A DNA stretch of 64,000 nt from Octopus sinensis (lineage: Eukaryota). The stretch is from positions 75,950,001-76,014,000 of the forward strand of contig NC_043004.1 of the NCBI RefSeq assembly GCF_006345805.1, read 5' to 3'. Below the pieces are notes generated by a model. It ran no database searches, was not told the DNA's origin, and saw nothing but the letters and a program-made list of their open reading frames with translations. The translations under genes were made by a program, and so were the position numbers. Positions 1 through 30,877 of this stretch are shown here, piece after piece (positions within the stretch are counted from its first letter, which is position 1; each line of letters begins with the position of its first letter).

Positions 1-51
1 AGTCTGATGCATGCTCAGAAGGCTCTGCTGCAGCTCAGGCAGTGACAGTCT
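1..51 (-). mobile_element. RTE-clade LINE relic: C-terminal zinc-finger-like end, downstream flank of the satellite
   Basis: Minus strand continues from the last unit as ...PADCHCLSCSRAF*ACIRL, matching the CxxCxRxFxxxIGL start of the C-terminal C2H2 motif of RTE/BovB-like ORFs. Cut by the window edge. Confidence 0.7.
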
Positions 52-3000
52 GCTGGGACTGAAGGTGAGCGGTTGGCTCTGGACTCATATAATTCGTGTT
101 TTCTTGGTACCTCTGCAACCCTGTTCTGTTCCTAAGACGAGGCACCTCCGTTGGTGCAGCTTTTCCAGGCTGGGCAGTCTGCTGGGACTGAAGGTGAGCG
201 GTTGGCTCTGGACTCATATAATTCGTGTTTTCTTGGTACCTCTGCAACCCTGTTCTGTTCCTAAGACGAGGCACCTCCGTTGGTGCAGCTTTTCCAGGCT
301 GGGCAGTCTGCTGGGACTGAAGGTGAGCGGTTGCTCTGGACTCATATAATTCGTGTTTTCTTGGTACCTCTGCAACCCTGTTCTGTTCCTAAGACGAGGC
401 ACCTCCGTTGGTGCAGCTTTTCCAGGCTGGGCAGTCTGCTGGGACTGAAGGTGAGCGGTTGGCTCTGGACTCATATAATTCGTGTTTTCTTGGTACCTCT
501 GCAACCCTGTTCTGTTCCCAAGACGAGGCACCTCCGTTGGTGCAGCTTTTCCGGGCTGGACAGTCTGCTGGGACTGAAGGTGAGCGGTTGGCTCTGGACT
601 CATACAATTCGTGTTTTCTTGGTACCCCTGCAACCCTGTTCTGTTCCTAAGACGAGGCATCTCCGTTGGTGCAGCTTTTCCAGGCTGGGCAGTCTGCTGG
701 GACTGAAGGTGAGCGGTTGGCTCTGGACACATATAATTCGTGTTTTCTGGGTACCTCTGCAACCCTGTTCTGTTCCTAAGACGAGGCACTCCGTTGGTGC
801 AGCTTTTCCAGGCTGGGCAGTCTGCTGGGACTGAAGGTGAGCGGTTGGCTCTGGACTCATATAATTCGTGTTTTCTTGGTACCTCTGCAACCCTGTTCTG
901 TTCCTAAGACGAGGCATCTCCGTTGGTGCAGCTTTTCCAGGCTGGGCAGTCTGCTGGGACTGAAGGTGAGCGGTTGGCTCTGGACTCATATAATTCGTGT
1001 TTTCTTGGTACCTCTGCAACCCTGTTCTGTTCCTAAGACGAGGCACCTCCGTTGGTGCAGCTTTTCCAGGCTGGGCAGTCTGCTGGGACTGAAGGTGAGC
1101 GTTGGCTCTGGACTCATATAATTCGTGTTTTCTTGGTACCTCTGCAACCCTGTTCTGTTCCTAAGACGAGGCACCTCCGTTGGTGCAGCTTTTCCAGGCT
1201 GGACAGTCTGCTGGGACTGAAGGTGAGCGGTTGGCTCTGGACTCATATAATTCGTGTTTTCTTGGTACCTCTGCAACCCTGTTCTGTTCCTAAGACGAGG
1301 CATCTCCGTTGGTGCAGCTTTTCCAGGCTGGGCAGTCTGCTGGGACTGAAGGTGAGCGGTTGGCTCTGGACTCATATAATTCGTGTTTTCTTGGTACCTC
1401 TGCAACCCTGTTCTGTTCCTAAGACGAGGCACCTCCGTTGGTGCAGCTTTTCCAGGGTGGGCAGTCTGCTGGGACTGAAGGTGAGCGGTTGGCTCTGGAC
1501 TCATATAATTCGTGTTTTCTTGGTACCTCTGCAACCCTGTTCTGTTCCTAAGACGAGGCACCTTTGTTGGTGCAGCTGTTCCAGGCTGGGCAGTCTGCTG
1601 GGACTGAAGGTGAGCGGTTGGCTCTGGACTCATATAATTCGTGTTTTCTTGGTACCTCTGCAACCCTGTTCTGTTCCTAAGACGAGGCATCTCCGTTGGT
1701 GCAGCTTTTCCAGGCTGGGCAGTCTGCTGGGACTGAAGGTGAGCGGTTGGCTCTGGACTCATATAATTCGTGTTTTCTTGGTACCTCTGCAACCCTGTTC
1801 TGTTCCTAAGACGAGGCATCTCCGTTGGTGCAGCTTTTCCAGGCTGGGCAGTCTGCTGGGACTGAAGGTGAGCGGTGGCTCTGGACTCATATAATTCGTG
1901 TTTTCTTGGTACCTCTGCAACCCTGTTCTGTTCCTAAGACGAGGCATCTCCGTTGGTGCAGCTTTTCCAGGCTGGGCAGTCTGCTGGGACTGAAGGTGAG
2001 CGGTTGGCTCTGGACTCATATAATTCGTGTTTTCTTGGTACCTCTGCAACCCTGTTCTGTTCCTAAGACGAGGCCTCCGTTGGTGCAGCTTTTCCAGGCT
2101 GGACAGTCTGCTGGGACTGAAGGTGAGCGGTTGGCTCTGGACTCATATAATTCGTGTTTTCTTGGTACCTCTGCAACCCTGTTCTGTTCCTAAGACGAGG
2201 CACCTCCGTTGGTGTGCAGCTTTCCAGGCTGGGCAGTCTGCTGGGACTGAAGGTGAGCGGTTGGCTCTGGACTCATATAATTCGTGTTTTCTTGGTACCT
2301 CTGCAACCCTGTTCTGTTCCTAAGACGAGGCATCTCCGTTGGTGCAGCTTTTCCAGGCTGGGCAGTCTGCTGGGACTGAAGGTGAGCGGTTGGCTCTGGA
2401 CTCATATAATTCGTGTTTTCTTGGTACCTCTGCAACCCTGTTCTGTTCCTAAGACGAGGCACCTCCGTTGGTGCAGCTTTCCAGGCTGGACAGTCTGCTG
2501 GGACTGAAGGTGAGCGGTTGGCTCTGGACTCATATAATTCGTGTTTTCTTGGTACCTCTGCAACCCTGTTCTGTTCCTAAGACGAGGCACCTCCGTTGGT
2601 GCAGCTTTTCCAGGCTGGACAGTCTGCTGGGACTGAAGGTGAGCGGTTGGCTCTGGACTCATATAATTCGTGTTTTCTTGGTACCTCTGCAACCCTGTTC
2701 TGTTCCTAAGACGAGGCACCTCCGTTGGTGCAGCTTTTCCAGGCTGGACAGTCTGCTGGGACTGAAGGTGAGCGGTTGGCTCTGGACTCATATAATTCGT
2801 GTTTTCTTGGTACCTCTGCAACCCTGTTCTGTTCCTAAGACGAGGCACCTCCGTTGGTGCAGCTTTTCCAGGCTGGCAGTCTGCTGGGACTGAAGGTGAG
2901 CGGTTGGCTCTGGACTCATATAATTCGTGTTTTCTTGGTACCTCTGCAACCCTGTTCTGTTCCTAAGACGAGGCACCTCCGTTGGTGCAGCTTTTCCAGG

Positions 3001-6000
3001 CTGGACAGTCTGCTGGGACTGAAGGTGAGCGGTTGGCTCTGGACTCATATAATTCGTGTTTTCTTGGTACCTCTGCAACCCTGTTCTGTTCCTAAGACGA
3101 GGCACCTCCGTTGGTGCAGCTTTCCAGGCTGGACAGTCTGCTGGGACTGAAGGTGAGCGGTTGGCTCTGGACTCATATAATTCGTGTTTTCTTGGTACCT
3201 CTGCAACCCTGTTCTGTTCCTAAGACGAGGCACCTCCGTTGGTGCAGCTTTTCCAGGCTGGACAGTCTGCTGGGACTGAAGGTGAGCGGTTGGCTCTGGA
3301 CTCATATAATTCGTGTTTTCTTGGTACCTCTGCAACCCTGTTCTGTTCCTAAGACGAGGCACCTCCGTTGGTGCAGCTTTTCCAGGCTGGGCAGTCTGCT
3401 GGGACTGAAGGTGAGCGGTTGGCTCTGGACTCATATAATTCGTGTTTTCTTGGTACCTCTGCAACCCTGTTCTGTTCCTAAGACGAGGCACCTCCGTTGG
3501 TGCAGCTTTTCCAGGCTGGGCAGTCTGCTGGGACTGAAGGTGAGCGGTTGGCTCTGGACTCATATAATTCGTGTTTTCTTGGTACCTCTGCAACCCTGTT
3601 CTGTTCCTAAGACGAGGCATCTCCGTTGGTGCAGCTTTTCCAGGCTGGGCAGTCTGCTGGGACTGAAGGTGAGCGGTTGGCTCTGGACTCATATAATTCG
3701 TGTTTTCTTGGTACCTCTGCAACCCTGTTCTGTTCCTAAGACGAGGCATCTCCGTTGGTGCAGCTTTTCCAGGCTGGGCAGTCTGCTGGGACTGAAGGTG
3801 AGCGGTTGGCTCTGGACTCATATAATTCGTGTTTTCTTGGTACCTCTGCAACCCTGTTCTGTTCCTAAGACGAGGCACCTCCGTTGGTGCAGCTTTTCCA
3901 GGCTGGGCAGTCTGCTGGGACTGAAGGTGAGCGGTTGGCTCTGGACTCATATAATTCGTGTTTTCTTGGTACCTCTGCAACCCTGTTCTGTTCCTAAGAC
4001 GAGGCACCTCCGTTGGTGCAGCTTTTCCAGGCTGGGCAGTCTGCTGGGACTGAAGGTGAGCGGTTGGCTCTGGACTCATATAATTCGTGTTTTCTTGGTA
4101 CCTCTGCAACCCTGTTCTGTTCCTAAGACGAGGCACCTCCGTTGGTGCAGCTTTTCCAGGCTGGGCAGTCTGCTGGGACTGAAGGTGAGCGGTTGGCTCT
4201 GGACTCATATAATTCGTGTTTTCTTGGTACCTCTGCAACCCTGTTCTGTTCCTAAGACGAGGCACCTCCGTTGGTGCAGCTTTTCCAGGCTGGGCAGTCT
4301 GCTGGGACTGAAGGTGAGCGGTTGGCTCTGGACTCATATAATTCGTGTTTTCTTGGTACCTCTGCAACCCTGTTCTGTTCCTAAGACGAGGCACCTCCGT
4401 TGGTGCAGCTTTTCCAGGCTGGACAGTCTGCTGGGACTGAAGGTGAGCGGTTGGCTCTGGACTCATATAATTCGTGTTTTCTTGGTACCTCTGCAACCCT
4501 GTTCTGTTCCTAAGACGAGGCACCTCCGTTGGTGCAGCTTTTCCAGGCTGGACAGTCTGCTGGGACTGAAGGTGAGCGGTTGGCTCTGGACTCATATAAT
4601 TCGTGTTTTCTTGGTACCTCTGCAACCCTGTTCTGTTCCTAAGACGAGGCACCTCCGTTGGTGCAGCTTTTCCAGGCTGAGCAGTCTGCTGGGACTGAAG
4701 GTGAGCGGTTGGCTCTGGACTCATATAATTCGTTTTTTCTTGGTACCTCTGCAACCCTGTTCTGTTCCTAAGACGAGGCACCTCCGTTGGTGCAGCTTTT
4801 CCAGGCTGGGCAGTCTGCTGGGACTGAAGGTGAGCGGTTGGCTCTGGACTCATATAATTCGTGTTTTCTTGGTACCTCTGCAACCCTGTTCTGTTCCTAA
4901 GACGAGGCACCTCCGTTGGTGCAGCTTTTCCAGGCTGGACAGTCTGCTGGGACTGAAGGTGAGCGGTTGGCTCTGGACTCATATAATTCGTGTTTTCTTG
5001 GTACCTCTGCAACCCTGTTCTGTTCCTAAGACGAGGCATCCTCCGTTGGTGCAGCTTTTCCAGGCTGGGCAGTCTGCTGGGACTGAAGGTGAGCGGTTGG
5101 CTCTGGACTCATATATATTCGTGTTTTCTTGGTACCTCTGCAACCTGTTCTGTTCCTAAGACGAGGCACCTCCGTTGGTGCAGCTTTTCCAGACTGGACA
5201 GTCTGCTGGGACTGAAGGTGAGCGGTTGGCTCTGGACTCATATAATTCGTGTTTTCTTGGTACCTCTGCAACCCTGTTCTGTTCCTAAGACGAGGCACTC
5301 CGTTGGTGCAGCTTTTCCAGGCTGGGCAGTCTGCTGGGACTGAAGGTGAGCGGTTGGCTCTGGACTCATATAATTCGTGTTTTCTTGGTACCTCTGCAAC
5401 CCTGTTCTGTTCCTAAGACGAGGCACCTCCGTTGGTGCAGCTTTTCCAGACTGGACAGTCTGCTGGGACTGAAGGTGAGCGGTTGGCTCTGGACTCATAT
5501 AATTCGTGTTTTCTTGGTACCTCTGCAACCCTGTTCTGTTCCTAAGACGAGGCACCTCCGTTGGTGCAGCTTTTCCAGGCTGGACAGTCTGCTGGGACTG
5601 AAGGTGAGCGGTTGGCTCTGGACTCATATAATTCGTGTTTTCTTGGTACCTCTGCAACCCTGTTCTGTTCCTAAGACGAGGCATCTCCGTTGGTGCAGCT
5701 TTTCCAGTCTGGGCAGTCTGCTGGGACTGAAGGTGAGCGGTTGGCTCTGGACTCATATAATTCGTGTTTTCTTGGTACCTCTGCAACCCTGTTCTGTTCC
5801 TAAGACGAGGCACCTCCGTTGGTGCAGCTTTTCCAGGGTGGGCAGTCTGCTGGGACTGAAGGTGAGCGGTTGGCTCTGGACTCATATAATTCGTGTTTTC
5901 TTGGTACCTCTGCAACCCTGTTCTGTTCCTAAGACGAGGCACCTCCGTTGGTGCAGCTTTTCCAGGTTGAGCAGTCTGCTGGGACTGAAGGTGAGCGGTT

Positions 6001-9000
6001 GGCTCTGGACTCATATAATTCGTGTTTTCTTGGTACCTCTGCAACCCTGTTCTGTTCCTAAGACGAGGCACCTCCGTTGGTGCAGCTTTTCCAGGCTGGG
6101 CAGTCTGCTGGGACTGAAGGTGAGCGGTTGGCTCTGGACTCATATAATTCGTGTTTTCTTGGTACCTCTGCAACCCTGTTCTGTTCCTAAGACGAGGCAC
6201 CTCCGTTGGTGCAGCTTTTCCAGACTGGACAGTCTGCTGGGACTGAAGGTGAGCGGTTGGCTCTGGACTCATATAATTCGTGTTTTCTTGGTACCTCTGC
6301 AACCCTGTTCTGTTCCTAAGACGAGGCACCCCGTTGGTGCAGCTTTCCAGGCTGGGCAGTCTGCTGGGACTGAAGGTGAGCGGTTGGCTCTGGACTCATA
6401 TAATTCGTGTTTTCTTGGTACCTCTGCAACCCTGTTCTGTTCCTAAGACGAGGCACCTCCGTTGGTGCAGCTTTTCCAGACTGGACAGTCTGCTGGGACT
6501 GAAGGTGAGCGGTTGGCTCTGGACTCATATAATTCGTGTTTTCTTGGTACCTCTGCAACCCTGTTCTGTTCCTAAGACGAGGCACCTCCGTTGGTGCAGC
6601 TTTTCCAGGCTGGGCAGTCTGCTGGGACTGAAGGTGAGCGGTTGGCTCTGGACTCATATAATTCGTGTTTTCTTGGTACCTCTGCAACCTGTTCTGTTCC
6701 TAAGACGAGGCACCTCCGTTGGTGCAGCTTTTCCAGGCTGGGCAGTCTGCTGGGACTGAAGGTGAGCGGTTGGCTCTGGACTCATATAATTCGTGTTTTC
6801 TTGGTACCTCTGCAACCCTGTTCTGTTCCTAAGACGAGGCACCTCCGTTGGTGCAGCTTTTCCAGGCTGGACAGTCTGCTGGGACTGAAGGTGAGCGGTT
6901 GGCTCTGGACTCATATAATTCGTGTTTTCTTGGTACCTCTGCAACCCTGTTCTGTTCCTAAGACGAGGCATCTCCGTTGGTGCAGCTTTTCCAGGCTGGG
7001 CAGTCTGCTGGGACTGAAGGTGAGCGGTTGGCTCTGGACTCATATAATTCGTGTTTTCTTGGTACCTCTGCAACCCTGTTCTGTTCCTAAGACGAGGCAC
7101 CTCCGTTGGTGCAGCTTTTCCAGACTGGACAGTCTGCTGGGACTGAAGGTGAGCGGTTGGCTCTGGACTCATATAATTCGTGTTTTCTTGGTACCTCTGC
7201 AACCCTGTTCTGTTCCTAAGACGAGGCACCTCCGTTGGTGCAGCTTTTCCAGGCTGGGCAGTCTGCTGGGACTGAAGGTGAGCGGTTGGCTCTGGACTCA
7301 TATAATTCGTGTTTTTCTGGTACCTCTGCAACCTGTTCTGTTCCTAAGACGAGGCACCCCCGTTGGTGCAGCTTTTCCAGGCTGGGCAGTCTGCTGGGAC
7401 TGAAGGTGAGCGGTTGGCTCTGGACTCATATAATTCGTGTTTTCTTGGTACCTCTGCAACCCTGTTCTGTTCCTAAGACGAGGCACCTCCGTTGGTGCAG
7501 CTTTTCCAGACTGGACAGTCTGCTGGGACTGAAGGTGAGCGGTTGGCTCTGGACTCATATAATTCGTGTTTTCTTGGTACCTCTGCAACCCTGTTCTGTT
7601 CCTAAGACGAGGCACCTCCGTTGGTGCAGCTTTTCCAGGCTGGACAGTCTGCTGGGACTGAAGGTGAGCGGTTGGCTCTGGACTCATATAATTCGTGTTT
7701 TCTTGGTACCTCTGCAACCCTGTTCTGTTCCTAAGACGAGGCACCTCCGTTGGTGCAGCCTTTCCAGGCTGGGCAGTCTGCTGGGACTGAAGGTGAGCGG
7801 TTGGCTCTGGACTCATATAATTCGTGTTTTCTTGGTACCTCTGCAACCCTGTTCTGTTCCTAAGACGAGGCACCTCCGTTGGTGCAGCTTTTCCAGACTG
7901 GACAGTCTGCTGGGACTGAAGGTGAGCGGTTGGCTCTGGACTCATATAATTCGTGTTTTCTTGGTACCTCTGCAACCCTGTTCTGTTCCTAAGACGAGAC
8001 ACCTCCGTTGGTGCAGCTTTTCCAGGCTGGGCAGTCTGCTGTGGGACTGAAGGTGAGCGGTTGGCTCTGGACTCATATAATTCGTGTTTTCTTGGTACCT
8101 CTGCAACCCTGTTCTGTTCCTAAGACGAGGCACCTCCGTTGGTGCAGCTTTTCCAGACTGGACAGTCTGCTGGGACTGAAGGTGAGCGGTTGGCTCTGGA
8201 CTCATATAATTCGTGTTTTCTTGGTACCTCTGCAACCCTGTTCTGTTCCTAAGACGAGGCACCTCCGTTGGTGCAGCTTTTCCAGGCTGGACAGTCTGCT
8301 GGGACTGAAGGTGAGCGGTTGGCTCTGGACTCATATAATTCGTGTTTTCTTGGTACCTCTGCAACCCTGTTCTGTTCCTAAGACGAGGCACCTCCGTTGG
8401 TGCAGCTTTTCCAGGCTGGACAGTCTGCTGGGACTGAAGGTGAGCGGTTGGCTCTGGACTCATATAATTCGTGTTCTTGGTACCTCTCCCTCTGCAACCC
8501 TGTTCTGTTCCTAAGACGAGGCACCTCCGTTGGTGCAGCTTTTCCAGGCTGGACAGTCTGCTGGGACTGAAGGTGAGCGGTTGGCTCTGGACTTATATAA
8601 TTCGTGTTTTCTTGGTACCGCTGCAACCCCGTTCTGTTCCTAAGACGAGGCATCTCCGTTGGTGCAGCTTTTCCAGGCTGGACAGTCTGCTGGGACTGAA
8701 GGTGAGCGGTTGGCTCTGGACTCATATAATTTGTGTTTTCTTGGTACCTCTGCAACCCTGTTCTGTTCCTAAGACGAGGCATCTCCGTTGGTGCAGCTTT
8801 TCCAGTCTGGGCAGTCTGCTGGGACTGAAGGTGAGCGGTTGGCTCTGGACTCATATAATTCGTGTTTTCTTGGTACCTCTGCAACCCTGTTTTGTTCCTA
8901 AGACGAGGCACCTCCGTTGGTGCAGCTTTTCCAGGGGGGCAGTCTGCTGGGACTGAAGGTGAGCGGTTGGCTCTGGACTCATATAATTCGTGTTTTCTTG

Positions 9001-12000
9001 GTACCTCTGCAACCCTGTTCTGTTCCTAAGACGAGGCACCTCCGTTGGTGCAGCTTTTCCAGGCTGGGCATCTGCTGGGACTGAAGGTGAGCGGTTGGCT
9101 CTGGACTCATATAATTCGTGTTTTCTTGGTACCTCTGCAACCCTGTTCTGTTCCTAAGACGAGGCACCTCCGTTGGTGCAGCTTTTCCAGGCTGGACAGT
9201 CTGCTGGGACTGAAGGTGAGCGGTTGGCTCTGGACTCATATAATTCGTGTTTTCTTGGTACCTCTGCAACCCTGTTCTGTTCCTAAGACGAGGCATCGCC
9301 GTTGGTGCAGCTTTTCCAGGCTGGGCAGTCTGCTGGGACTGAAGGTGAGCGGTTGGCTCTGGACTCATATAATTCGTGTTTTCTTGGTACCTCTGCAACC
9401 CTGTTCTGTTCCTAAGACGAGGCACCTCCGTTGGTGCAGCTTTTCCAGACTGGACAGTCTGCTGGGACTGAAGGTGAGCGGTTGGCTCTGGACTCATATA
9501 ATTCGTGTTTTCTTGGTACCTCTGCAACCTGTTCTGTTCCTAAGACGAGGCACCTCCGTTGGTGCAGCTTTTCCAGGCTGGGCAGTCTGCTGGGACTGAA
9601 GGTGAGCGGTTGGCTCTGGACTCATATAATTCGTGTTTTCTTGGTACCTCTGCAACCCTGTTCTGTTCCTAAGACGAGGCACCTCCGTTGGTGCAGCTTT
9701 TCCAGACTGGACAGTCTGCTGGGACTGAAGGTGAGCGGTTGGCTCTGGACTCATATAATTCGTGTTTTCTTGGTACCTCTGCAACCCTGTTCTGTTCCTA
9801 AGACGAGGCACCTCCGTTGGTGCAGCTTTTCTAGGCTGGACAGTCTGCTGGGACTGAAGGTGAGCGGTTGGCTCTGGACTCATATAATTCGTGTTTTCTT
9901 GGTACCTCTGCAACCCTGTTCTGTTCCTAAGACGAGGCATCTCCGTTGGTGCAGCTTTTCCAGTCTGGGCAGTCTGCTGGGACTGAAAGTGAGCGGTTGG
10001 CTCTGGACTCATATAATTCGTGTTTTCTCGGTACCTCTGCAACCCTGTTCTGTTCCTAAGACGAGGCACCTCCGTTGGTGCAGCTTTTCCAGGGTGGGCA
10101 GTCTGCTGGGACTGAAGGTGAGCGGTTGGCTCTGGACTCATATAATTCGTGTTTTCTTGGTACCTCTGCAACCCTGTTTGTTCCTAAGACGAGGCACCTC
10201 CGTTGGTGCAGCTTTTCAGGCTGGGCAGTCTGCTGGGACTGACGTGAGCGGTTGGCTCTGGACTCATATAATTCGTGTTTTCTTGGTACCTCTGCACACC
10301 TGTTCTGTTCCTAAGACGAGGCACCTCCGTTGGTGCAGCTTTTCCAGGCTGGGCAATCTGCTGGGACTGAAGGTGAGCGGTTGGCTCTGGACTCATATAA
10401 TTCGTGTTTTCTTGGTACCTCTGCAACCCTGTTCTGTTCCTAAGACGAGGCACCTCCGTTGGTGCAGCTTTTCCAGGCTGGACAGTCTGCTGGGACTGAA
10501 GGTGAGCGGTTGGCTCTGGACTCATATAATTCGTGTTTTCTTGGTACCTCTGCAACCCTGTTCTGTTCCTAAGACGAGGCATCGCCGTTGGTGCAGCTTT
10601 TCCAGGCTGGGCAGTCTGCTGGGACTGAAGGTGAGCGGTTGGCTCTGGACTCATATAATTCGTGTTTTCTTGGTACCTCTGCAACCCTGTTCTGTTCCTA
10701 AGACGAGGCACCTCCGTTGGTGCAGCTTTTCCAGACTGGACAGTCTGCTGGGACTGAAGGTGAGCGGTTGGCTCTGGACTCATATAATTCGTGTTTTCTT
10801 GGTACCTCTGCAACCCTGTTCTGTTCCTAAGACGAGGCACCCGTTGGTGCAGCTTTTCCAGGCTGGCAGTCTGCTGGGACTGAAGGTGAGCGGTTGGCTC
10901 TGGACTCATATAATTCGTGTTTTCTTGGTACCTCTGCAACCCTGTTCTGTCCTAAGACGAGGCACCTCCGTTGGTGCAGCTTTTCCAGACTGGACAGTCT
11001 GCTGGGACTGAAGGTGAGCGGTTGGCTCTGGACTCATATAATTCGTGTTTTCTTGGTACCTCTGCAACCCTGTTCTGTTCCTAAGACGAGGCACCTCCGT
11101 TGGTGCAGCTTTTCTAGGGGGGGACAGTCTGCTGGGACTGAAGGTGAGCGGTTGGCTCTGGACTCATATAATTCGTGTTTCTTGGTACCTCTGCAACCTG
11201 TTCTGTTCCTAAGACGAGGCATCTCCGTTGGTGCAGCTTTTCCAGTCTGGGCAGTCTGCTGGGACTGAAGGTGAGCGGTTGGCTCTGGACTCATATAATT
11301 CGTGTTTTCTGGTACCTCTGCAAACCTGTTCTGTTCCTAAGACGAGGCACTCCGTTGGTGCAGCTTTTCCAGGGTGGGCAGTCTGCTGGGACTGAAGGTG
11401 AGCGGTTGGCTCTGGACTCATATAATTCGTGTTTTCTTGGTACCTCTGCAACCCTGTTCTGTTCCTAAGACGAGGCACCTCCGTTGGTGCAGCTTTTCAG
11501 GCTGAGCAGTCTGCTGGGACTGACGTGAGCGGTTGGCTCTGGACTCATATAATTCGTGTTTTCTTGGTACCTCTGCAACCCTGTTCTGTTCCTAAGACGA
11601 GGCACCTCCGTTGGTGCAGCTTTTCCAGGCTGGACAGTCTGCTGGGACTGAAGGTGAGCGGTTGGCTCTGGACTCATATAATTCGTGTTTTTTGGTACCT
11701 CTGCAACCCTGTTCTGTTCCTAAGACGAGGCATCTCCGTTGGTGCAGCTTTTCCAGGCTGGGCAGTCTGCTGGGACTGAAGGTGAGCGGTTGGCTCTGGA
11801 CTCATATAATTCGTGTTTTCTTGGTACCCTGCAACCTGTTCTGTTCCTAAGACGAGGCACCTCCGTTGGTGCAGCTTTTCCAGACTGGACAGTCTGCTGG
11901 GACTGAAGGTGAGCGGTTGGCTCTGGACTCATATAATTCGTGTTTTCTTGGTACCTCTGCACCCTGTTCTGTTCCTAAGACGAGGCACCTCCGTTGGTGC

Positions 12001-15000
12001 AGCTTTTCCAGGCTGGACAGTCTGCTGGGACTGAAGGTGAGCGGTTGGCTCTGGACTCATATAATTCGTGTTTTCTTGGTACCTCTGCAACCCTGTTCTG
12101 TTCCTAAGACGAGGCACCTCCGTTGGTGCAGCTTTTCCAGACTGGACAGTCTGCTGGGACTGAAGGTGAGCGGTTGGCTCTGGACTATATAATTCGTGTT
12201 TTCTTTGTACCTCTGCAACCCTGTTCTGTTCCTAAGACGAGGCACTCCGTTGGTGCAGCTTTTCCAGGCTGGGCAGTCTGCTGGGACTGAAGGTGAGCGG
12301 TTGGCTCTGGACTCATATAATTCGTGTTTTCTTGGTACCTCTGCAACCCTGTTCTGTTCCTAAGACGAGGCACCTCGTTGGTGCAGCTTTTCCGACTGGC
12401 AGTCTGCTGGGACTGAAGGTGAGCGGTTGGCTCTGGACTCATATAATTCGTGTTTTTCCGGTACCTCTGCACCCTGTTCTGTTCCTAAGACGAGGCACCT
12501 CCGTTGGTGCAGCTTTTCTAGGCTGGACAGTCTGCTGGGACTGAAGGTGAGCGGTTGGCTCTGGACTCATATAATTCGTGTTTTTTGGTACCTGCAACCC
12601 TGTCTGTTCCTAAGACGAGGCATCTCGTTGGTGCAGCTTTTCCAGTATGGGCAGTCTGCTGGGACTGAAAGTGAGAGCGGTTGGCTCTGGACTCATATAT
12701 ATTCGTGTTTTCTTCTGGTACCTCTGCAACCTGTTCTGTTCCTAAGACGAGGCACCTCCGTTGGTGCAGCTTTTCCAGGGTGGGCAGTCTGCTGGGACTG
12801 AAGGTGAGCGGTTGGCTCTGGACTCATATAATTCGTGTTTTCTTGGTACCTCTGCAACCCTGTTCTGTTCCTAAGACGAGGCACCTCCGTTGGTGCAGCT
12901 TTTCCAGGCTGAGCAGTCTGCTGGGACTGACGTGAGCGGTTGGCTCTGGACTCATATAATTCGTGTTTTCTTGGTACCTCTGCAACCTGTTCTGTTCCTA
13001 AGACGAGGCACTCCGTTGGTGCAGCTTTTCCAGGTGGGCAATCTGCTGGGACTGAAGGTGAGCGGTTGGCTCTGGACTCATATAATTCGTGTTTTCTTGG
13101 TACCTCTGCAACCTGTTCTGTTCTAAGACGAGGCACCTCGTTGGGTGCAGCTTTTCCAGGCTGGACAGTCTGCTGGGACTGAAGGTGAGCGGTTGGCTCT
13201 GGACTCATATAATTCGTGTTTTCTTGGTACCTCTGCAACCCTGTTCTGTTCCTAAGACGAGGCATCGCCGTTGGTGCAGCTTTTCCAGGCTGGGCAGTTG
13301 CTGGGACTGAAGGTGAGCGGTTGCTCTGGACCTCATATAATTCGTGTTTTTTGGTACCTCTGCAACCCTGTTCTGTTCCTAAGACGAGGCACCTCCGTTG
13401 GTGCAGCTTTTCCAGACTGGACAGTCTGCTGGGACTGAAGGTGAGCGGTTGGCTCTGGACTCATATAATTCGTGTTTTCTTGGTACTCTGCAACCCTGTT
13501 CTGTTCCTAAGACGAGGCACCTCCGTTGGTGCAGCTTTTCCAGGCTGGGCAGTCTGCTGGGACTGAAGGTGAGCGGTTGGCTCTGGACTCATATAATTCG
13601 TGTTTTCTTGGTACCTCTGCAACCCTGTTCTGTTCCTAAGACGAGGCACCTCCGTTGGTGCAGCTTTTCCAGACTGGACAGTCTGCTGGGACTGAAGGTG
13701 AGCGGTTGGCTCTGGACTCATATAATTCGTGTTTTCTTGGTACCTCTGCAACCTGTTCTGTTCCTAAGACGAGGCACCTCCGTTGGTGCAGCTTTTCCAG
13801 GCTGGACAGTCTGCTGGGACTGAAGGTGAGCGGTTGGCTCTGGACTCATATAATTCGTGTTTTCTTGGTACCTCTGCAACCCTGTTCTGTTCCTAAGACG
13901 AGGCATCTCCGTTGGTGCAGCTTTTCCAGTCTGGGCAGTCTGCTGGGACTGAAGGTGAGCGGTTGGCTCTGGACTCATATAATTCGTGTTTTCTCGGTAC
14001 CTCTGCAACCTGTTCTGTTCCTAAGACGAGGCACCTCCGTTGGTGCAGCTTTTCCAGGGTGGGCAGTCTGCTGGGACTGAAGGTGAGCGGTTGGCTCTGG
14101 ACTCATATAATTCGTGTTTTCTTGGTACCTCTGCAACCCTGTTCTGTTCCTAAGACGAGGCACCTCCGTTGGTGCAGCTTTTCCAGGCTGAGCAGTCTGC
14201 TGGGACTGAAGGTGAGCGGTTGGCTCTGGACTCATATAATTCGTGTTTTCTTGGTACCTCTGCAACCCTGTTCTGTTCCTAAGACGAGGCACCTCCGTTG
14301 GTGCAGCTTTTCCAGGCTGGACAGTCTGCTGGGACTGAAGGTGAGCGGTTGGCTCTGGACTCATATAATTCGTGTTTTCTTGGTACCTCTGCAACCCTGT
14401 TCTGTTCCTAAGACGAGGCATCTCCGTTGGTGCAGCTTTTCCAGGCTGGGCAGTCTGCTGGGACTGAAGGTGAGCGGTTGGCTCTGGACTCATATAATTC
14501 GTGTTTTCTTGGTACCTCTGCAACCTGTTCTGTTCCTAAGACGAGGCACCTCCGTTGGTGCAGCTTTTCCAGACTGGACAGTCTGCTGGGACTGAAGGTG
14601 AGCGGTTGGCTCTGGACTCATATATTCGTGTTTTCTTGGTACCTCTGCAACCCTGTTCTGTTCCTAAGACGAGGCACCTCCGTTGGTGCAGCTTTTCCAG
14701 GCTGGACAGTCTGCTGGGACTGAGGTGAGCGGTTGGCTCTGGACTCATATAATTCGTGTTTTCTTGGTACCTCTGCAACCCTGTTCTGTTCCTAAGACGA
14801 GGCACCTCCGTTGGTGCAGCTTTTAGACTGGACAGTCTGCTGGGACTGAAGGTGAGCGGTTGGCTCTGGACTCATATATTCGTGTTTTCTTGGTACCTCT
14901 GCAACCCTGTCTGTTCCTAAGACGAGGCACCTCCGTGGTGCAGCTTTTCCAGGCTGGGCAGTCTGCTGGGACTGAAGGTGAGCGGTTGGCTCTGGACTCA

Positions 15001-18000
15001 TATAATTCGTGTTTTCTTGGTACCTCTGCAACCCTGTTCTGTTCCTAAGACGAGGAGGCACCTCCGTTGGTGCAGCTTTTCCAGACTGGGCAGTCTGCTG
15101 GGACTGAAGGTGAGCGGTTGGCTCTGGACTCATATAATTCGTGTTTTCTTGGTACCTCTGCAACCCTGTTCTGTTCCTAAGACGAGGCACCTCCGTTGGT
15201 GCAGCTTTCTAGGCTGGACAGTCTGCTGGGACTGAAGGTGAGCGGTTGGCTCTGGACTCATATAATTCGTGTTTTCTTGGTACCTCTGCAACCTGTTCTG
15301 TTCCTAAGACGAGGCATCTCCGTTGGTGCAGCTTTTCCAGTATGGGCAGTCTGCTGGGACTGAAAGTGAGCGGTTGGCTCTGGACTCATATAATTCGTGT
15401 TTTCTCGGTACCTCTGCAACCCTGTTCTGTTCCTAAGACGAGGCATCTCCGTTGGTGCAGCTTTTCCAGTCTGGGCAGTCTGCTGGGACTGAAGGTGAGC
15501 GGTTGGCTCTGGACTCATATAATTCGTGTTTTCTTGGTACCTCTGCAACCCTGTTCTGTTCCTAAGACGAGGCACCTCCGTTGGTGCAGCTTTTCCAGGG
15601 TGGGCAGTCTGCTGGGACTGAAGGTGAGCGGTTGGCTCTGGACTCATATAATTCGTTTTCTTGGTACCTCTGCAACCCTGTTCTGTTCCTAAGACGAGGC
15701 ACCTCCGTTGGTGCAGCTTTTCCAGGCTGAGCAGTCTGCTGGGACTGAGGTGAGCGGTTGGCTCTGGACTCATATAATTCGTGTTTTCTTGGTACCTCTG
15801 CAACCCTGTTCTGTTCCTAAGACGAGGCACCTCCGTTGGTGCAGCTTTTCCAGGCTGGGCAGTCTGCTGGGACTGAAGGTGAGCGGTTGGCTCTGGACTC
15901 ATATAATTCGTGTTTTCTTGGTACCTCTGCAACCCTGTTCTGTTCCTAAGACGAGGCACCTCCGTTGGTGCAGCTTTTCCAGGCTGGACAGTCTGCTGGG
16001 ACTGAAGGTGAGCGGTTGGCTCTGGACTCATATAATTCGTGTTTTCTTGGTACCTCTGCAACCCTGTTCTGTTCCTAAGACGAGGCATCCCGTTGGTGCA
16101 GCTTTTCCAGGCTGGGCAGTCTGCTGGGACTGAAGGTGAGCGGTTGGCTCTGGACTCATATAATTCGTGTTTTCTTGGTACCTCTGCAACCCTGTTCTGT
16201 TCCTAAGACGAGGCACCTCCGTTGGTGCAGCTTTTCCAGCTGGACAGTCTGCTGGGACTGAAGGTGAGCGGTTGGCTCTGGACTCATATAATTCGTGTTT
16301 TCTTGGTACCTCTGCAACCCTGTTCTGTTCCTAAGACGAGGCACCTCCGTTGGTGCAGCTTTTCCAGGCTGGGCAGTCTGCTGGGACTGAAGGTGAGCGG
16401 TTGGCTCTGGACTCATATAATTCGTGTTTTCTTGGTACCTCTGCAACCCTGTTCTGTTCCTAAGACGAGGCACCTCCGTTGGTGCAGCTTTTCCAGCTGG
16501 ACAGTCTGCTGGGACTGAAGGTGAGCGGTTGGCTCTGGACTCATATAATTCGTGTTTTCTTGGTACCTCTGCAACCCTGTTCTGTTCCTAAGACGAGGCA
16601 CCTCCGTTGGTGCAGCTTTTCAGGCTGGACAGTCTGCTGGGACTGAAGGTGAGCGGTTGGCTCTGGACTCATATAATTCGTGTTTTCTTGGTACCTCTGC
16701 AACCCTGTTCTGTTCCTAAGACGAGGCATCTCCGTTGGTGCAGCTTTTCCAGTCTGGGCAGTCTGCTGGGACTGAAGGTGAGCGGTTGGCTCTGGACTCA
16801 TATAATTCGTGTTTTCTCGGTACCTCTGCAACCCTGTTCTGTTCCTAAGACGAGGCACCTCCGTTGGTGCAGCTTTTCCAGGCTGGGCAGTCTGCTGGGA
16901 CTGAAGGTGAGCGGTTGGCTCTGGACTCATATAATTCGTGTTTTCTTGGTACCTCTGCAACCCTGTTCTGTTCCTAAGACGAGGCACCTCCGTTGGTGCA
17001 GCTTTTCCAGGCTGAGCAGTCTGCTGGGACTGACGTGAGCGGTTGGCTCTGGACTCATATAATTCGTGTTTTCTTGGTACCTCTGCAACCCTGTTCTGTT
17101 CCTAAGACGAGGCACCTCCGTTGGTGCAGCTTTTCCAGGCTGGACAGTCTGCTGGGACTGAAGGTGAGCGGTTGGCTCTGGACTCATATAATTCGTGTTT
17201 TCTTGGTACCTCTGCAACCCTGTTCTGTTCCTAAGACGAGGCATCTCCGTTGGTGCAGCTTTTCAGGCTGGGCAGTCTGCTGGGACTGAAGGTGAGCGGT
17301 TGGCTCTGGACTCATATAATTCGTGTTTTCTTGGTACCTCTGCAACCCTGTTCTGTTCCTAAGACGAGGCACCTCCGTTGGTGCAGCTTTTCCAGACTGG
17401 ACAGTCTGCTGGGACTGAAGGTGAGCGGTTGGCTCTGGACTCATATAATTCGTGTTTTCTTGGTACCTCTGCAACCCTGTTCTGTTCCTAAGACGAGGCA
17501 CCCCCGTTGGTGCAGCTTTTCCAGGCTGGGCAGTCTGCTGGGACTGAAGGTGAGCGGTTGGCTCTGGACTCATATAATTCGTGTTTTCTTGGTACCTCTG
17601 CAACCCTGTTCTGTTCCTAAGACGAGGCACCTCCGTTGGTGCAGCTTTTCCAGACTGGACAGTCTGCTGGGACTGAAGGTGAGCGGTTGGCTCTGGACTC
17701 ATATAATTCGTGTTTTCTTGGTACCTCTGCAACCCTGTTCTGTTCCTAAGACGAGGCACCTCCGTTGGTGCAGCTTTTCCAGACTGGACAGTCTGCTGGG
17801 ACTGAAGGTGAGCGGTTGGCTCTGGACTCATATAATTCGTGTTTTCTTGGTACCTCTGCAACCCTGTTCTGTTCCTAAGACGAGGCACCTCCGTTGGTGC
17901 AGCCTTTCCAGGCTGGGCAGTCTGCTGGGACTGAAGGTGAGCGGTTGGCTCTGGACTCATATAATTCGTGTTTTCTTGGTACCTCTGCAACCCTGTTCTG

Positions 18001-18697
18001 TTCCTAAGACGAGGCACCTCCGTTGGTGCAGCTTTTCCAGACTGGACAGTCTGCTGGGACTGAAGGTGAGCGGTTGGCTCTGGACTCATATAATTCGTGT
18101 TTTCTTGGTACCTCTGCAACCCTGTTCTGTTCCTAAGACGAGGCACCTCCGTTGGTGCAGCTTTTCCAGACTGGACAGTCTGCTGGTACTGAAGGTGAGC
18201 GGTTGGCTCTGGACTCATATAATTCGTGTTTTCTTGGTACCTCTGCAACCCTGTTCTGTTCCTAAGACGAGGCACCTCCGTTGGTGCAGCTTTTCCAGGC
18301 TGGGCAGTCTGCTGGGACTGAAGGTGAGCGGTTGGCTCTGGACTCATATAATTCGTGTTTTCTTGGTACCTCTGCAACCCTGTTCTGTTCCTAAGACGAG
18401 GCACTTCCGATGGTGCAGCTTTTCCAGGCTGGACAGTCTGCTGGGACTGAAGGTGAGCGGTTGGCTCTGGACTCATATAATTCGTGTTTTCTTGGTACCT
18501 CTGCAACCCTGTTCTGTTCCTAAGACGAGGCATCTCCGTTGGTGCAGCTTTTCCAGGCTGGGCAGTCTGCTGGGACTGAAGGTGAGCGGTTGGCTCTGGA
18601 CTCATATAATTCGTGTTTTCTTGGTACCTCTGCAACCCTGTTCTGTTCCTAAGACGAGGCACCTCCGTTGGTGCAGCTTTTCCAGGCTGGACAGTCT
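44..18697. repeat. Tandem satellite array, 129-bp unit, about 145 copies, derived from an RTE-clade LINE segment
   Basis: Unit CAGTCTGCTGGGACTGAAGGTGAGCGG...GGTGCAGCTTTTCCAGGCTGG(G/A) repeats head-to-tail with very few substitutions. It begins and ends with the same GACAGTCT octamer (44-51, 18690-18697). Copy number is length/129. Confidence 0.98.
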
Positions 18698-18925
18698 TGC
18701 GTTTGCACTTCCCACATGTTGCACTGCATCTCAAAGCTCTTCAGTAAAAGGCTTTGAATGTATCCTTGAAGCACTTTCGCTGTCTACATTGCATGAGCTT
18801 GCCTTCCACCAGTCTCCTGGGAAGTCTCCTGGGATGTTACAGTCTCCTGGGATGTTACATGTCAGGCATTTGAATAAGGTAACCTGCTCACCTGACTTGC
18901 ACTCTCCTCAGCAGTGTGTAGGTGT
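18698..18925 (-). mobile_element. RTE-clade LINE relic: post-RT region, upstream flank of the satellite
   Basis: Minus strand reads TLLRRVQVR*AGYLIQMPD...LVEGKLMQCRQRKCFKDTFKA(fs)LKSFEMQCNMWEVQTQDCPAWKS, a decayed QLRWAGHxxRMPD...KRFKDTLK..LK.F.....WE..AQDR.AW as in RTE/BovB-like ORFs. It runs collinearly into the first satellite unit. Confidence 0.85.
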
Positions 18926-19481
18926 GTATGTTTTACTTTCATTGATCTATGATTATGTTTTTAGCAAAACATATATGAGAGATATTACTATTTTCTTCAT
19001 TGAAATTCACAAGCTACGTGAAATGCATGCATGGACTTCAACAAACCAATTCCACTGAGGTTTCCCAACCACTTTATATTCTTGCTTCATCTACTCATGG
19101 TTTATTATTAAATTTCAACTCATTGGTTGAATATAATTTTCCTTTGATAACCTGTTCACTATGCAGTGAACTTATTTACTGCACCATTTACATATGCTGT
19201 CCCAGTCACTTTTATACGTGTCTAGACTGCTTATGATTTGTTATTCAAACTGGATCTTGCTAAGTGAATGGATTCCCAGCCATTCATACATCTACCCCGC
19301 CTACTCATTATCCACTAAACATATTTTGTTCAAAAAATTTGTTTGCTGTTCAATTTATCCATATCGATAACTGTTTGTACATGGTGTCACTGCTGCAGTT
19401 GCATTTGGGTCCTATTATGTCCCATAACCAACTCTTAAAGACTAAAAACATTCAGAAAAACAAGCACTGATAACCATATAT

Positions 19482-27298: not shown

Positions 27299-27338
<40 letters not shown>

Positions 27339-27405
27339 TTACATATACATATATACAATGGGCTTCTTTCAGATCCACTCACAAGGCTTTGGTCAGCTCA
27401 AGGTC
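27086..27405 (-). mobile_element. SINE family B, 3' part (AAAAGAGT tail)
   Basis: Reverse complement of the element at 53150-53716: GCTCCAGCATGGCCGCAGTC, ACCGATAGAATAAGTACTAGG and an internal (CA)n/(TA)n tract. Confidence 0.8.
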
Positions 27406-28801
27406 ACCACATTCCTTACCAGATAAAAACCTCTCATCCGGGGTGGGTGGGTGAGTTGTATTGAGTGGGTGTGGCTTTGTGCCATTTGAGAGATTTGAGG
27501 TACAATATATAATATAACTATTATATTCGTATCTGGACTGAACCTGTAATCATGTGGTTGGTAAGCAAGCTACTTGCCATACAGCCACTCCTGCACCTAT
27601 TGTGGCGAAAGAGTCAGCACAAGTTCGCCATTAACTTCTGCCGGAGCCACATGGAGCTTAGGTGTTTCGCTCATAAATACACACATTGCCTGGTCTGAGA
27701 TTTGAACTCGCGATCCATCGACCGTGAGTCCGCTGCTCTAACCACTTGGCCATTTTGCAAGGATCTTTTGCCTGCACTTGAGATCATGGTGCTCCCAGAT
27801 TCCTGAGCCTGCAACCCATATTGGTACTGGATATCTTGTCTTGGTTTGTGTCAGTAGAGTGGAGAAGGTCTGTGATGTGCTGTGCAAGTTTTATTGCACC
27901 TGAAACTTTAGGTAGAGCAATCAATGGAGAGGCAGCTTTCCGATGGCCAATAGGAGGATGCCCCAACAAGCATGGAAGCTTCAGATGCAAACTTGTGTGA
28001 AGCTGACTGCTGGGGCAATAATCTCATGCATGAACATTGCTAGCATTTTGCATGGACAGTGGTCAGTGACAGTCTTTCTTAGTCATGAATTGACAGCTAT
28101 ATACACATACATACATACATACATACATACATACATGGTCATACTCACGATGACCCATACACCACTGCAGAAGTGTTATGACCAATCCTTCTGGTTGTGT
28201 AAAACACCCATGGTGGTACCACATAAAAATGCTCTTATGGTGACCATAAAAGTATCCATTTGGTGTCACATAAAAGTGCCTATGTGGAGCCATGTAAAAG
28301 CATCCAGCACATTCTGTAAAGTGGTTGGCATTAGGAAGGGCATCCAGCAGTAGAAACCATTGCCAAATCAGACTGGAATCTGGTGCAGCTCCCCAGCTTG
28401 CCAGCTCTGGTCAAACCATCCGATCTAGGCGAGTAGGGACAATGGATATTAAATAGCGATGATGATGATGACGATATATAGTCTTTTGCTTAATGGCCCA
28501 AACAGAAACACAAGCAAAATGGTAGGATTACAACCATATTCAACTTTATCCTTTTTCTTTTCTGTTCTCTTCTTTATTTATTCTTCACTCTGATGAAGCT
28601 TCATGTTTCAGATCAGTTTTATTACCAAATAGGATTAATACTTTTACATATTTTGAATATCAATGGAAATAGAAACATTTTGAATATCAATGGAAATAGA
28701 AACATCTGTTAGGTGGGATGCAGTCTATTTGCATTAAATTAATAAATTATAATTGATGTAAGTCAATTGTTGTTAATCAGTACTTCTCCATTTTGTTTTA
28801 T

Positions 28802-28876
<75 letters not shown>

Positions 28877-30333
28877 ACATATACATATATACAATGGGCT
28901 TCTTTCAGATCCACTCACAAGGCTTGGTCAGCTCAAGTCACCACATTCCTTACCAGATAAAAACCTCTCATCCGGGGTGGGTGGGTGAGTTGTATTGAGT
29001 GGGTGTGGCTTTGTGCCATTTGAGAGATTTGAGGTACAATATATAATATAACTATTATATTCGTATCTGGACTGAACCTGTAATCATGTGGTTGGTAAGC
29101 AAGCTACTTGCCATACAGCCACTCCTGCACCTATTGTGGCGAAAGAGTCAGCACAAGTTCGCCATTAACTTCTGCCGGAGCCACATGGAGCTTAGGTGTT
29201 TCGCTCATAAATACACACATTGCCTGGTCTGAGATTTGAACTCGCGATCCATCGACCGTGAGTCCGCTGCTCTAACCACTTGGCCATTTTGCAAGGATCT
29301 TTTGCCTGCACTTGAGATCATGGTGCTCCCAGATTCCTGAGCCTGCAACCCATATTGGTACTGGATATCTTGTCTTGGTTTGTGTCAGTAGAGTGGAGAA
29401 GGTCTGTGATGTGCTGTGCAAGTTTTATTGCACCTGAACTTTAGGTAGAGCAATCAATGGAGAGGCAGCTTTCCGATGGCCAATAGGAGGATGCCCCAAC
29501 AAGCATGGAAGCTTCAGATGCAACTTGTGTGAAGCTGACTGCTGGGGCAATAATCTCATGCATGAACATTGCTAGCATTTTGCATGGACAGTGGTCAGTG
29601 ACAGTCTTTCTTAGTCATGAATTGACAGCTATATACACATACATACATACATACATACATACATACATGGTCATACTCACGATGACCCATACACCACTGC
29701 AGAAGTGTTATGACCAATCCTTCTGGTTGTGTAAAACACCCATGGTGGTACCACATAAAAATGCTCTTATGGTGACCATAAAAGTATCCATTTGGTGTCA
29801 CATAAAAGTGCCTATGTGGAGCCATGTAAAAGCATCCAGCACATTCTGTAAAGTGGTTGGCATTAGGAAGGGCATCCAGCAGTAGAAACCATTGCCAAAT
29901 CAGACTGGAATCTGGTGCAGCTCCCCAGCTTGCCAGCTCTGGTCAAACCATCCGATCTAGGCGAGTAGGGACAATGGATATTAAATAGCGATGATGATGA
30001 TGACGATATATAGTCTTTTGCTTAATGGCCCAAACAGAAACACAAGCAAAATGGTAGGATTACAACCATATTCAACTTTATCCTTTTTCTTTTCTGTTCT
30101 CTTCTTTATTTATTCTTCACTCTGATGAAGCTTCATGTTTCAGATCAGTTTTATTACCAAATAGGATTAATACTTTTACATATTTTGAATATCAATGGAA
30201 ATAGAAACATTTTGAATATCAATGGAAATAGAAACATCTGTTAGGTGGGATGCAGTCTATTTGCATTAAATTAATAAATTATAATTGATGTAAGTCAATT
30301 GTTGTTAATCAGTACTTCTCCATTTTGTTTTAT

Positions 30334-30417
<84 letters not shown>
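27320..30417. repeat. Direct tandem duplication, 2 x about 1.54 kb, bounded by (TA)n
   Basis: 27360 aligns with 28896 and 28801 with 30333. The copies differ mainly by four 1-bp deletions in short runs, and the same ORF appears twice in the track (27943, 29505). Confidence 0.95.
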
Positions 30418-30419
<2 letters not shown>

Positions 30420-30877
30420 TATATCATTATTTATATCAGGAATCAATATTAGAAAATTCTTCAGAAAGTTATGTACATGTGTAAAATAATTGTTGTATTA
30501 AAAATATAAATACATATAAAAATATATATAAATATGTATAAGTCATCATCATCATTGTTTAACTTCCGTTTTCCATGCTAGCATGGGTTGAATGGTTCAA
30601 CCAAGGTCTGGGAAGCCATAAATATATAATGTATATGACAGTTTAAATGTTTTGAATTAAGTATTTAAAGCATCTTATGATTGTTTCACAGAAGTGCTGT
30701 CCCTATAATGAAATCCTATATTGATAAGCATTTATAGACAACTCTTCTGCTCCTCAGAGATATATATATTTATATATATATATAAATATAAAGGAATTTG
30801 CGAATGCACGAAGGCTGTGAAGACAGCTTAGGTAATTGGGAAAATACCATTAAGAAAATGGAAACAAATGGCCAGCA

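What the first reader, a model, noticed from the sequence alone, without database searches (positions are those of the whole stretch)
1..18925. An 18.6-kb satellite born in place from 129 bp of a dead RTE LINE, with both parental flanks preserved
Seen: on the minus strand the third reading frame of the unit is DCPAWKSCTNGGASS*EQNRVAEVPRKHELYESRANRSPSVPA. The right flank leads into it (QVR*AGYLIQMPD...FKDT...WEVQTQ) and the left flank leads out of it (DCHCLSCSRAF*ACIRL). Known: RTE/BovB-like ORFs end in RWAGH..RMPD...WE..AQDR..W...GA...E..R....KR..RK.R...CxxCxRxF..IGL. Collapsing the array to one unit therefore restores one continuous LINE C-terminus. The octamer GACAGTCT sits at both array ends, i.e. 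129 bp apart in the ancestor. Inference: a microhomology-mediated duplication seeded a roughly 145-fold amplification. The LINE is heavily decayed but the units are nearly identical, so amplification came long after LINE death.
Basis: partly seen in the sequence, partly recalled or inferred. Interest (0 to 1): 0.85.

Follow-up and report, generated by a model that had tools for sequence, protein, structure and literature searches.

The report
Single-locus satellite born inside dead LINE
A 129-base piece of an old, broken jumping-gene copy is repeated 145 times at one spot in this genome, with the rest of the copy still attached on both sides; this likely arose by slippage at a short pre-existing repeat, a known way to make tandem repeats that is unusually large and easy to read here.

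Summary
The array (46-18697) holds 145 units of 129 bp and occurs once in the assembly (136 of 136 genome-wide matches). Dispersed copies of the parent LINE family align across both junctions with one unit (47 of 63 loci reach both flanks). The parent is a 5'-truncated ~480-bp LINE 3' end; RTE is likely but untested against named references. Amplification is late: the copy differs 18-19% from its family, units only 1.65% from each other. Run contigs support a real array in two organism labels and single-copy depth in a third. One correction: the octamer GACAGTCT is probably not the seed. The family has GGTGGTCT left and GG(CG/CA/TG)GTCT right; 0 of 55 copies carry the left ACA. The seed was likely GTCT in an imperfect repeat, and a later edge exchange likely wrote the octamer. 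Added here: a 10/11/21-unit higher-order period, and variants clustered at the unit junction. The kind is known (Haber-Louis model; 7,276 human TE-derived tandem repeats), and this scan noted similar LINE-born arrays in two other genomes.

The parts
1..43 (-). Left parental flank: the part of the LINE ORF end after the unit, coding the decayed C-terminal CxxC zinc-finger region; the element continues to about 75 bp left of the window (L021 ~9925-10000)
   Evidence: tblastn to residues 1054-1117 of an intact 1123-aa relative, E 1.7e-7 in a two-stretch database
44..51 (+). Left-end octamer GACAGTCT; its letters ACA are of the right-site type and were likely written by a later exchange at the array edge; GTCT is the family-shared core
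46..18697 (-). Head-to-tail array, 145 copies of a 129-bp (43-codon) piece of the LINE ORF; mean pairwise substitution difference 1.65%; single locus in the assembly
8683..18046 (.). Zone (units about 68-140) with a higher-order period of 10-11 units and a 21-unit super-period
   Evidence: lag 21 z -6.6 in units 67-140; 1st percentile of the shuffled minimum -3.7; marker units spaced 9,10,11,10,11,1,10
18690..18697 (+). Right-end octamer GACAGTCT, at the family's GG(CG/CA/TG)GTCT site
18698..18925 (-). Right parental flank: the part of the LINE ORF before the unit, up to the 5' truncation point near 18920-18925
   Evidence: residues 981-1085 of the intact relative
18823..18859 (.). Separate 18-bp local tandem duplication (2.1 copies, 100%) inside the right flank

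Best explanation
A 5'-truncated, ~480-bp 3' end of an RTE-like LINE carries 145 tandem copies of an internal 129-bp segment at its own site, likely founded by a slipped or unequal exchange between two imperfect repeats of the parent (exact core GTCT) and likely expanded late by unequal exchange or template switching. Shown: single locus, one-unit parent family, intact flanks, 18-19% decay shared by unit and flanks, 1.65% difference between units. Inferred: (1) the founding crossover lay in GTCT, joining the right site's upstream letters to the left site's downstream letters, as every internal junction reads; (2) a later contraction or conversion with its breakpoint a few bases outside the array replaced the left site's GTG by ACA, which made the octamer at both ends; (3) block copying of 10-11 and then 21 units made the higher-order period; (4) growth came after the split from the lineage of organism label D, whose run shows single-copy depth. 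The array is likely neutral and non-coding.
For: Collinearity with one unit; spacing exactly 129 in 34 of 55 copies, range 109-132. Protein collinearity with an intact APE+RT+zinc-finger ORF. Single locus: 77 of 77 junction matches and 136 of 136 core matches. Decay from the family's column majority: left flank 21/115, unit 23/129, right flank 39/206; family copies 17% on average. Left-site letters: T at position 3 in 53 of 55, C in 0; chance of ACA by point changes about 2e-4 from site frequencies, 4e-4 to 3e-3 by a looser count. Run contigs: X9 has a 159-letter record identical to unit 1 at depth 291, against 2.5-7.7 for its other listed pieces; X1 has a unit piece at depth 5613 and shows the C100T variant at 16% (assembly 28 of 144, 19%); X10 has a 320-letter record at depth 5.2 that covers unit positions 35-135 with 3 other letters and runs on 219 letters. 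Period. The general model is in print: PMC6947457 and PMC3389668.
Against: The letters of the unamplified allele at the left site were not seen: X10's listed pieces leave L024 1378-1415 uncovered, and the 219 letters beyond the unit were not shown. The locus is picked for having duplicated, so a rare copy that already had an 8-bp match is favoured more than site frequencies say. Contig depths are not copy numbers, X1 may be the source sample, and organism labels are coded. No spanning long read was seen. The middle of the array is rich in 1-bp indels (37 in units 91-108 against 3-9 per 18 units at the ends), so the exact count and order of units may be partly an assembly product. Low unit divergence alone cannot date the birth because homogenisation resets it. 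No target-site duplication was evident by eye.
Confidence: 0.7

Rival explanations
1. One reading: this copy had drifted to a perfect 8-bp repeat GACAGTCT at both sites, and that match seeded the duplication (classic Haber-Louis case). Everything else is as in the best explanation.
For: The octamer is at both ends. The family already has a near-repeat at the two sites (6 or 7 of 8 letters alike in 13 of 55 copies). Longer microhomology would raise the duplication rate, so such copies are over-represented among arrays (inference). Flanking repeats of 5-20 bp, mostly 7 bp, are described for 300 human TE-derived repeats.
Against: It needs three adjacent changes at the left site that all match the right site (0 of 55 copies). 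It also needs A at unit position 129 to be ancestral, whereas the family (G in 42 of 55 at the right site), the array (80 of 144) and the X9 record all have G.
Confidence: 0.22
2. The unit was excised as a 129-bp circle, amplified by rolling-circle replication and put back at its own site by homologous recombination, in one or a few bursts.
For: Single locus, one orientation, very similar units, in-register ends. Rolling-circle amplification is among the mechanisms listed in PMC3648361.
Against: A single monomer circle gives uniform units, whereas this array has layered variants: none periodic in units 1-39, 10/11/21 periods further in. That needs repeated later block events in any case. A 129-bp circle is very small (general knowledge).
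Confidence: 0.05
3. The long array is mainly an assembly artefact, or else a coding repeat (129 bp = 43 codons, two of six frames open).
For: Many 1-bp indels mid-array, 65 of 84 deletions in base runs. One frame on each strand has no stop in the unit, giving a 607-aa open frame at 17235-19058.
Against: High unit depth in runs of two organism labels and a read-level variant at the assembly's frequency. Blocks one period apart are never letter-identical (0 of 21). In the open plus frame 14 of 41 distinct changes are synonymous against 25% expected, in the open minus frame 11 of 41 against 23%, so there is no clear purifying signal. The LINE's own frame has a stop in every unit.
Confidence: 0.03

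Closest known systems
TE-derived single-locus tandem repeats of the human genome (Ahmed and Liang 2012, PMC3389668; abstract and Results section read)
   Same: Tandem repeat made from part of a TE by local duplication in place; mostly single-locus (5,747 of 5,932 clusters); some flanked by short direct repeats; fewer units in outgroup genomes.
   Different: Those arrays mostly have about two units (Alu means 2.3-2.4; a 17 x 52 bp case is their illustrated long one) and start more often in young TEs. This one has 145 x 129 bp in a copy 18% diverged from its family, with a higher-order period.
Haber and Louis 1998 model of minisatellite origin (seen only as described in PMC6947457 passages and PMC3389668; original not read)
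   Same: Slippage or unequal exchange between short direct repeats flanking the future unit, then expansion by exchange between the longer homologies.
   Different: The model uses 5-10 bp repeats. Here the family supplies only 4 exact bases inside an imperfect repeat, and the visible 8-mer is likely secondary.
LINE-ORF-derived satellites: chicken HinfI/SCR1 (CR1), Phodopus PROsat and seal Pvc20 (L1 ORF2), cetacean common satellite (L1 3' end) (seen as passages and a table in the review PMC9659126)
   Same: Satellite monomer from the 3' part or ORF of a LINE.
   Different: In the passages I saw the link is sequence likeness to the LINE; here both parental flanks are in place and the array is confined to its birthplace. 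No RTE case appeared in those passages.
Maize CRM1TR and CRM4TR (Sharma et al. 2013, PMC3648361; passages read)
   Same: Arrays wholly derived from one retrotransposon segment; CRM4TR at a single locus; gene conversion changed a monomer end; growth by non-allelic repair.
   Different: LTR elements, monomers of several hundred to ~1370 bp, 95-98% like their parents, (peri)centromeric, transcribed; the short repeats needed for a one-step origin were not found.
RTE-2_OV, an RTE LINE of Octopus vulgaris (Petrosino et al. 2022, PMC9115989; passages read)
   Same: Single ORF of 1109 aa with endonuclease, RT and C2H2 finger, microsatellite after the ORF; the intact relative of the parent family in this genome has this layout (1123 aa).
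   Different: Its sequence was not found in the 4 of 8 supplementary files searched, so no direct comparison was made. The array's parent is an older family, about 39% identical in decayed translation to the intact one.

Membership tests
TE-derived tandem repeat born in place | Unit is homologous to a dispersed TE segment present once per element | tested here: met
   no locus of 63 had a second match to the left query
TE-derived tandem repeat born in place | Array flanks continue the same TE collinearly on both sides | tested here: met
   19 of 20 and 47 of 63 loci; protein level
TE-derived tandem repeat born in place | Orthologous site in a relative has fewer units | tested here: inconclusive
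   X10 single-copy depth and a record running on past the unit, but the onward letters and the left junction were not shown
Haber-Louis origin | 5-10 bp direct repeat flanking the unit before duplication | tested here: inconclusive
   8-mer at both ends today; family copies show 0-6 exact bases, 4 in 12 of 55 and 6 in 3 of 55; ancestral allele not read
Non-LTR retrotransposon (LINE) with APE endonuclease | RT domain and APE endonuclease in the parent or its kin | tested here: met
   RVT_1 at E 2.3e-5, below Pfam's cut-off, in family copy L009; RVT_1 and Exo_endo_phos above cut-off in intact relative L047; best PDB matches L1 ORF2p then R2. The window's own fragment has no meaningful Pfam hit.
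RTE clade | Single ORF EN-RT, short 3' UTR ending in a microsatellite; C2H2 finger in some members | tested here: met
   Intact relative: one 1123-aa ORF, C-terminal CxxC..H..H, tail of simple repeats about 35 bp after the stop; family copies end in (ATT)n-like tails; features as described in PMC9115989. Shown for kin, not for the decayed window copy.
RTE clade | RT phylogeny groups with named RTE elements | not testable with these tools
   No homolog bore a clade name; no Repbase or Dfam here; the RWAGH-type motif is recalled, and a paper search for it gave only unrelated hits
Classical satellite DNA family | Long arrays at several loci or in heterochromatin or centromere | tested here: not met
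   One locus of 18.65 kb in the assembly; chromatin state not testable
Higher-order-repeat satellite | Monomer variants recur with a multi-unit period | tested here: met
   loose period, only in the right two-thirds, assembly-based only

The most novel reading that the evidence does not exclude
A satellite caught in its first steps, with every stage readable at one locus: a one-unit allele surviving in a close relative, a 4-bp seed, a mutation hot spot at the unit junction, an array edge that overwrote its own flank and so forged a false 8-bp microhomology, and a 10/11/21-unit higher-order repeat emerging within about 1-2% divergence. If edge overwriting is general, flanking direct repeats used to infer how tandem repeats start are often consequences, not causes.
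Probability: 0.3. Interest if true: 0.6.

Novelty: new member of a known kind. Interest (0 to 1): 0.36.

Why it matters
How new satellites start is usually inferred after the birthplace is lost. Here the parent family, both flanks and probably an unamplified allele are all available, so the seed, timing and first higher-order structure can be tested directly by long reads and one PCR. It also warns that end microhomologies should be checked against paralogs before being called seeds. No function for the host is indicated.

Tried and rejected
Hairpin as cause: DNA folds of the junction, the unit and both ends were no more stable than shuffles (z -1.15 to +1.51, 6 of 6 stretches), so no structural trigger is claimed. 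Coding repeat: no clear synonymous excess. Multi-locus satellite: rejected for the assembly. Non-autonomous element with a fixed 5' end: family copies share the 3' end but differ in 5' extent, some by over 500 bp more, as for 5'-truncated LINEs. Conversion from the left flank as source of junction variants: only the A at 129 matches, by eye. Run X12 laid 0 of 12.9 million reads, even on a highly repeated stretch, so it is no test. Runs with small or zero word share were not used. A clade name for the LINE could not be had from homolog names, paper text or supplements (4 of 8 files not searched, 2 more too large; the RTE-2_OV sequence may lie there). No host gene was recognised by eye among 48 open frames of 110 aa or more (not scanned against Pfam; short exons would be missed). 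Literature searches listed no paper on this array or on an RTE-born single-locus array; a recent octopus repeat annotation has 0 occurrences of 'satellite' (PMC13282606, passages). Subscription journals and bioRxiv supplements were not covered.

Full report
Observation. The window opens with a head-to-tail array of 129-bp units from 46 to 18697, 145.0 copies, 97% matches. Splitting it gave 144 full units plus the last; 86 are 129 bp long and the rest 124-133. There are 193 substitutions, 84 deletions and 25 insertions against the commonest letter of each column, and the mean pairwise substitution difference is 1.65%. GACAGTCT stands at 44-51 and at 18690-18697. Inside the array the base before CAGTCT is G in 80 units, A in 59 and missing in 5.

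One locus. A junction pattern matched 77 times in the 2.72-Gb assembly, all in this array. A unit-core pattern with one mismatch matched 136 times genome-wide and 136 times in the window. The unit has not spread in this assembly.

The parent. A search with the last unit plus right flank found a dispersed family at 68-78% identity (39 scored of 381 candidates). I did not build the collapsed sequence; I compared natural copies with each junction as it lies. All 20 first loci match both junction stretches, and 19 run into both flanks with an overlap of one unit. With more loci (63 after dropping 6 duplicates), all 63 match both stretches, 47 reach both flanks, and none has a second copy of the unit region. 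Of 55 copies with letters at both anchor columns, 34 have a spacing of exactly 129 (range 109-132). These loci were selected for likeness to the query. The element ends about 75 bp left of the window, where family copies end in (ATT)n-like tails, and is cut at its 5' side near 18920-18925; other copies extend further 5' by varying lengths. The window copy is thus a 5'-truncated 3' end of about 480 bp. No target-site duplication was evident by eye.

What kind of LINE. A longer family copy has a weak RVT_1 match (E 2.3e-5, under the Pfam cut-off). Its decayed translation finds a younger family in the same genome at about 39% identity with open frames up to 1152 aa. One of these is a single 1123-aa ORF with APE endonuclease, RT and a C-terminal CxxC..H..H motif, followed closely by simple repeats. 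The window's right flank and unit align to residues 981-1085 and the unit and left flank to 1054-1117 of that ORF. This layout matches the description of RTE-2_OV (PMC9115989, passages). No homolog carried a clade name, so RTE rests on architecture and on recalled motifs, not on a tree. That the genome is an octopus is my guess from recall and comes from no call.

Timing. Left flank, unit and right flank differ from the family's column majority by 18.3%, 17.8% and 18.9%; family copies average 17%. Units differ from their own majority by 1.0%. Homogenisation could mimic youth, so I looked at other samples. Ten runs hold the right junction and flank in whole or part; four runs were laid on the left flank plus one unit. 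X1 (label A, possibly the source sample) has a unit piece at depth 5613 and the C100T variant at 2524 of 15326 (16%; assembly 19%). X9 (label C) has a 159-letter record identical to unit 1, with G at position 129, at depth 291 against 2.5-7.7 for its other listed pieces; 159 = 129 + 30 is what a tandem loop gives in a 31-mer graph (inference). X10 (label D) has a 320-letter record at depth 5.2, like its other pieces (3.5-8.3), covering unit positions 35-135 with 3 other letters and running on for 219 letters with no joint back into the unit. That fits a one-unit or few-unit allele about 3% diverged, but the onward letters and the left junction were not shown, and contig depth is not a copy number. 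X12 laid nothing and is no test. Together these support a real array and growth in roughly the last tenth of the copy's life (inference).

The microhomology. In 55 family copies the left site is GGTGGTCT-like (third letter T in 53, C in 0; ACA in 0) and the right site is GG(CA/TG/CG)GTCT, a decayed CpG (CA 30, TG 8, CG 6). Exact left/right matches are 0-6 bases, 4 in 12 copies and 6 in 3. The parent therefore offers GTCT inside an imperfect repeat, with CAGGC shared a few bases upstream. A single slip leaves the outer left site unchanged (inference from the geometry), yet this left site has three adjacent letters of the right-site type; by point change alone that has a chance of about 2e-4 from site frequencies, or 4e-4 to 3e-3 by a looser count. 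A at position 129 also looks derived, since family, array majority and X9 have G. I read the octamer as the mark of a later contraction or conversion at the edge (about 70%). Against this, the locus is selected for having duplicated, which favours rare copies with longer matches (about 30%). The X10 allele would decide.

Internal structure. Variant sharing between units peaks at lags 10, 11 and 21 (lag 21 z -6.6 in units 67-140; 1% of shuffles reach -3.7; no period in units 1-39). Marker units fall at 44, 68, 77, 87, 98, 108, 119, 120, 130. Blocks one period apart share substitution profiles only partly (9 of 21) and are never letter-identical (0 of 21), which argues against a plain assembly duplication, though 1-bp indels pile up mid-array and look like consensus errors (65 of 84 deletions in base runs, background 49%). 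Six of 11 variants seen in three or more units lie in positions 121-129, just before the junction (scan test p 0.003; 118 of 193 substituted letters). Both alleles at 124 would be explained by templating from the neighbouring CAGTCTG, G124T in direct and G124A in inverted sense, and G124A goes with A129 in 23 of 25 units; this is inference, and folding energies are not unusual. The other clustered variants are unexplained.

Comparison and verdict. TE-derived tandem repeats born by local duplication are common: 7,276 in human, mostly single-locus and mostly about two units, 300 with flanking direct repeats (PMC3389668, abstract and Results read). The slippage model with 5-10 bp repeats is standard (PMC6947457, passages), LINE-ORF satellites are listed in reviews (PMC9659126 passages; PMC12628747 parts 2-3 of 5), and maize CRM repeats show single-locus birth with conversion at monomer ends (PMC3648361 passages). 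Two earlier notes of this scan describe LINE-born arrays with the parent attached in other genomes (not checked by me). This is a new member of a known kind, notable for size, an old parent, intact flanks, an emerging higher-order period and a probable unamplified allele. Interest 0.36.

Noticed in passing
window 31904-37141: A second TE-derived array: 62-bp units (about 85 copies, 93-95% matches) in four blocks of alternating orientation, ending in the tail of a common dispersed SINE-like element that naturally holds 2-3 internal copies of this repeat (e.g. 49046-49203). One 79-letter pattern matched 5 times genome-wide, all here. A 1.4-kb stretch is repeated at 99.2% (32739-34136 and 34693-36091). 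The label SINE is recalled.
   Followed up: partly
window 27321-28890 and 28856-30424: A 1.57-kb tandem duplication at 99.4% identity; recent duplication or assembly artefact. With the two arrays and the 18-bp duplication, this 40-kb stretch holds several local duplications.
   Followed up: no
L022 3763-3999: A copy of the same SINE-like tail 98.3% identical to window 37065-37301, in opposite orientation about 53 kb away; other copies nearby are 72-88%.
   Followed up: no
L046 1388-4369; L047 846-4217: A young RTE-like family with long open frames (several of 1123 aa with identical scores at different loci), so possibly recently active.
   Followed up: partly
L021 about 9360-9450 and 9680-9770: Long inverted repeats around a (TAA)n tract just left of the LINE fragment, like a MITE (seen by eye).
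   Followed up: no
L084 and L093 (G000:C5:89096000 and 89099285): Two family copies 3.3 kb apart with the same query span and near-equal scores, suggesting a larger tandem duplication that includes the LINE fragment.
   Followed up: no
L023 35-359: A 26-bp minisatellite, 12.7 copies, 97% matches, just right of the window.
   Followed up: no
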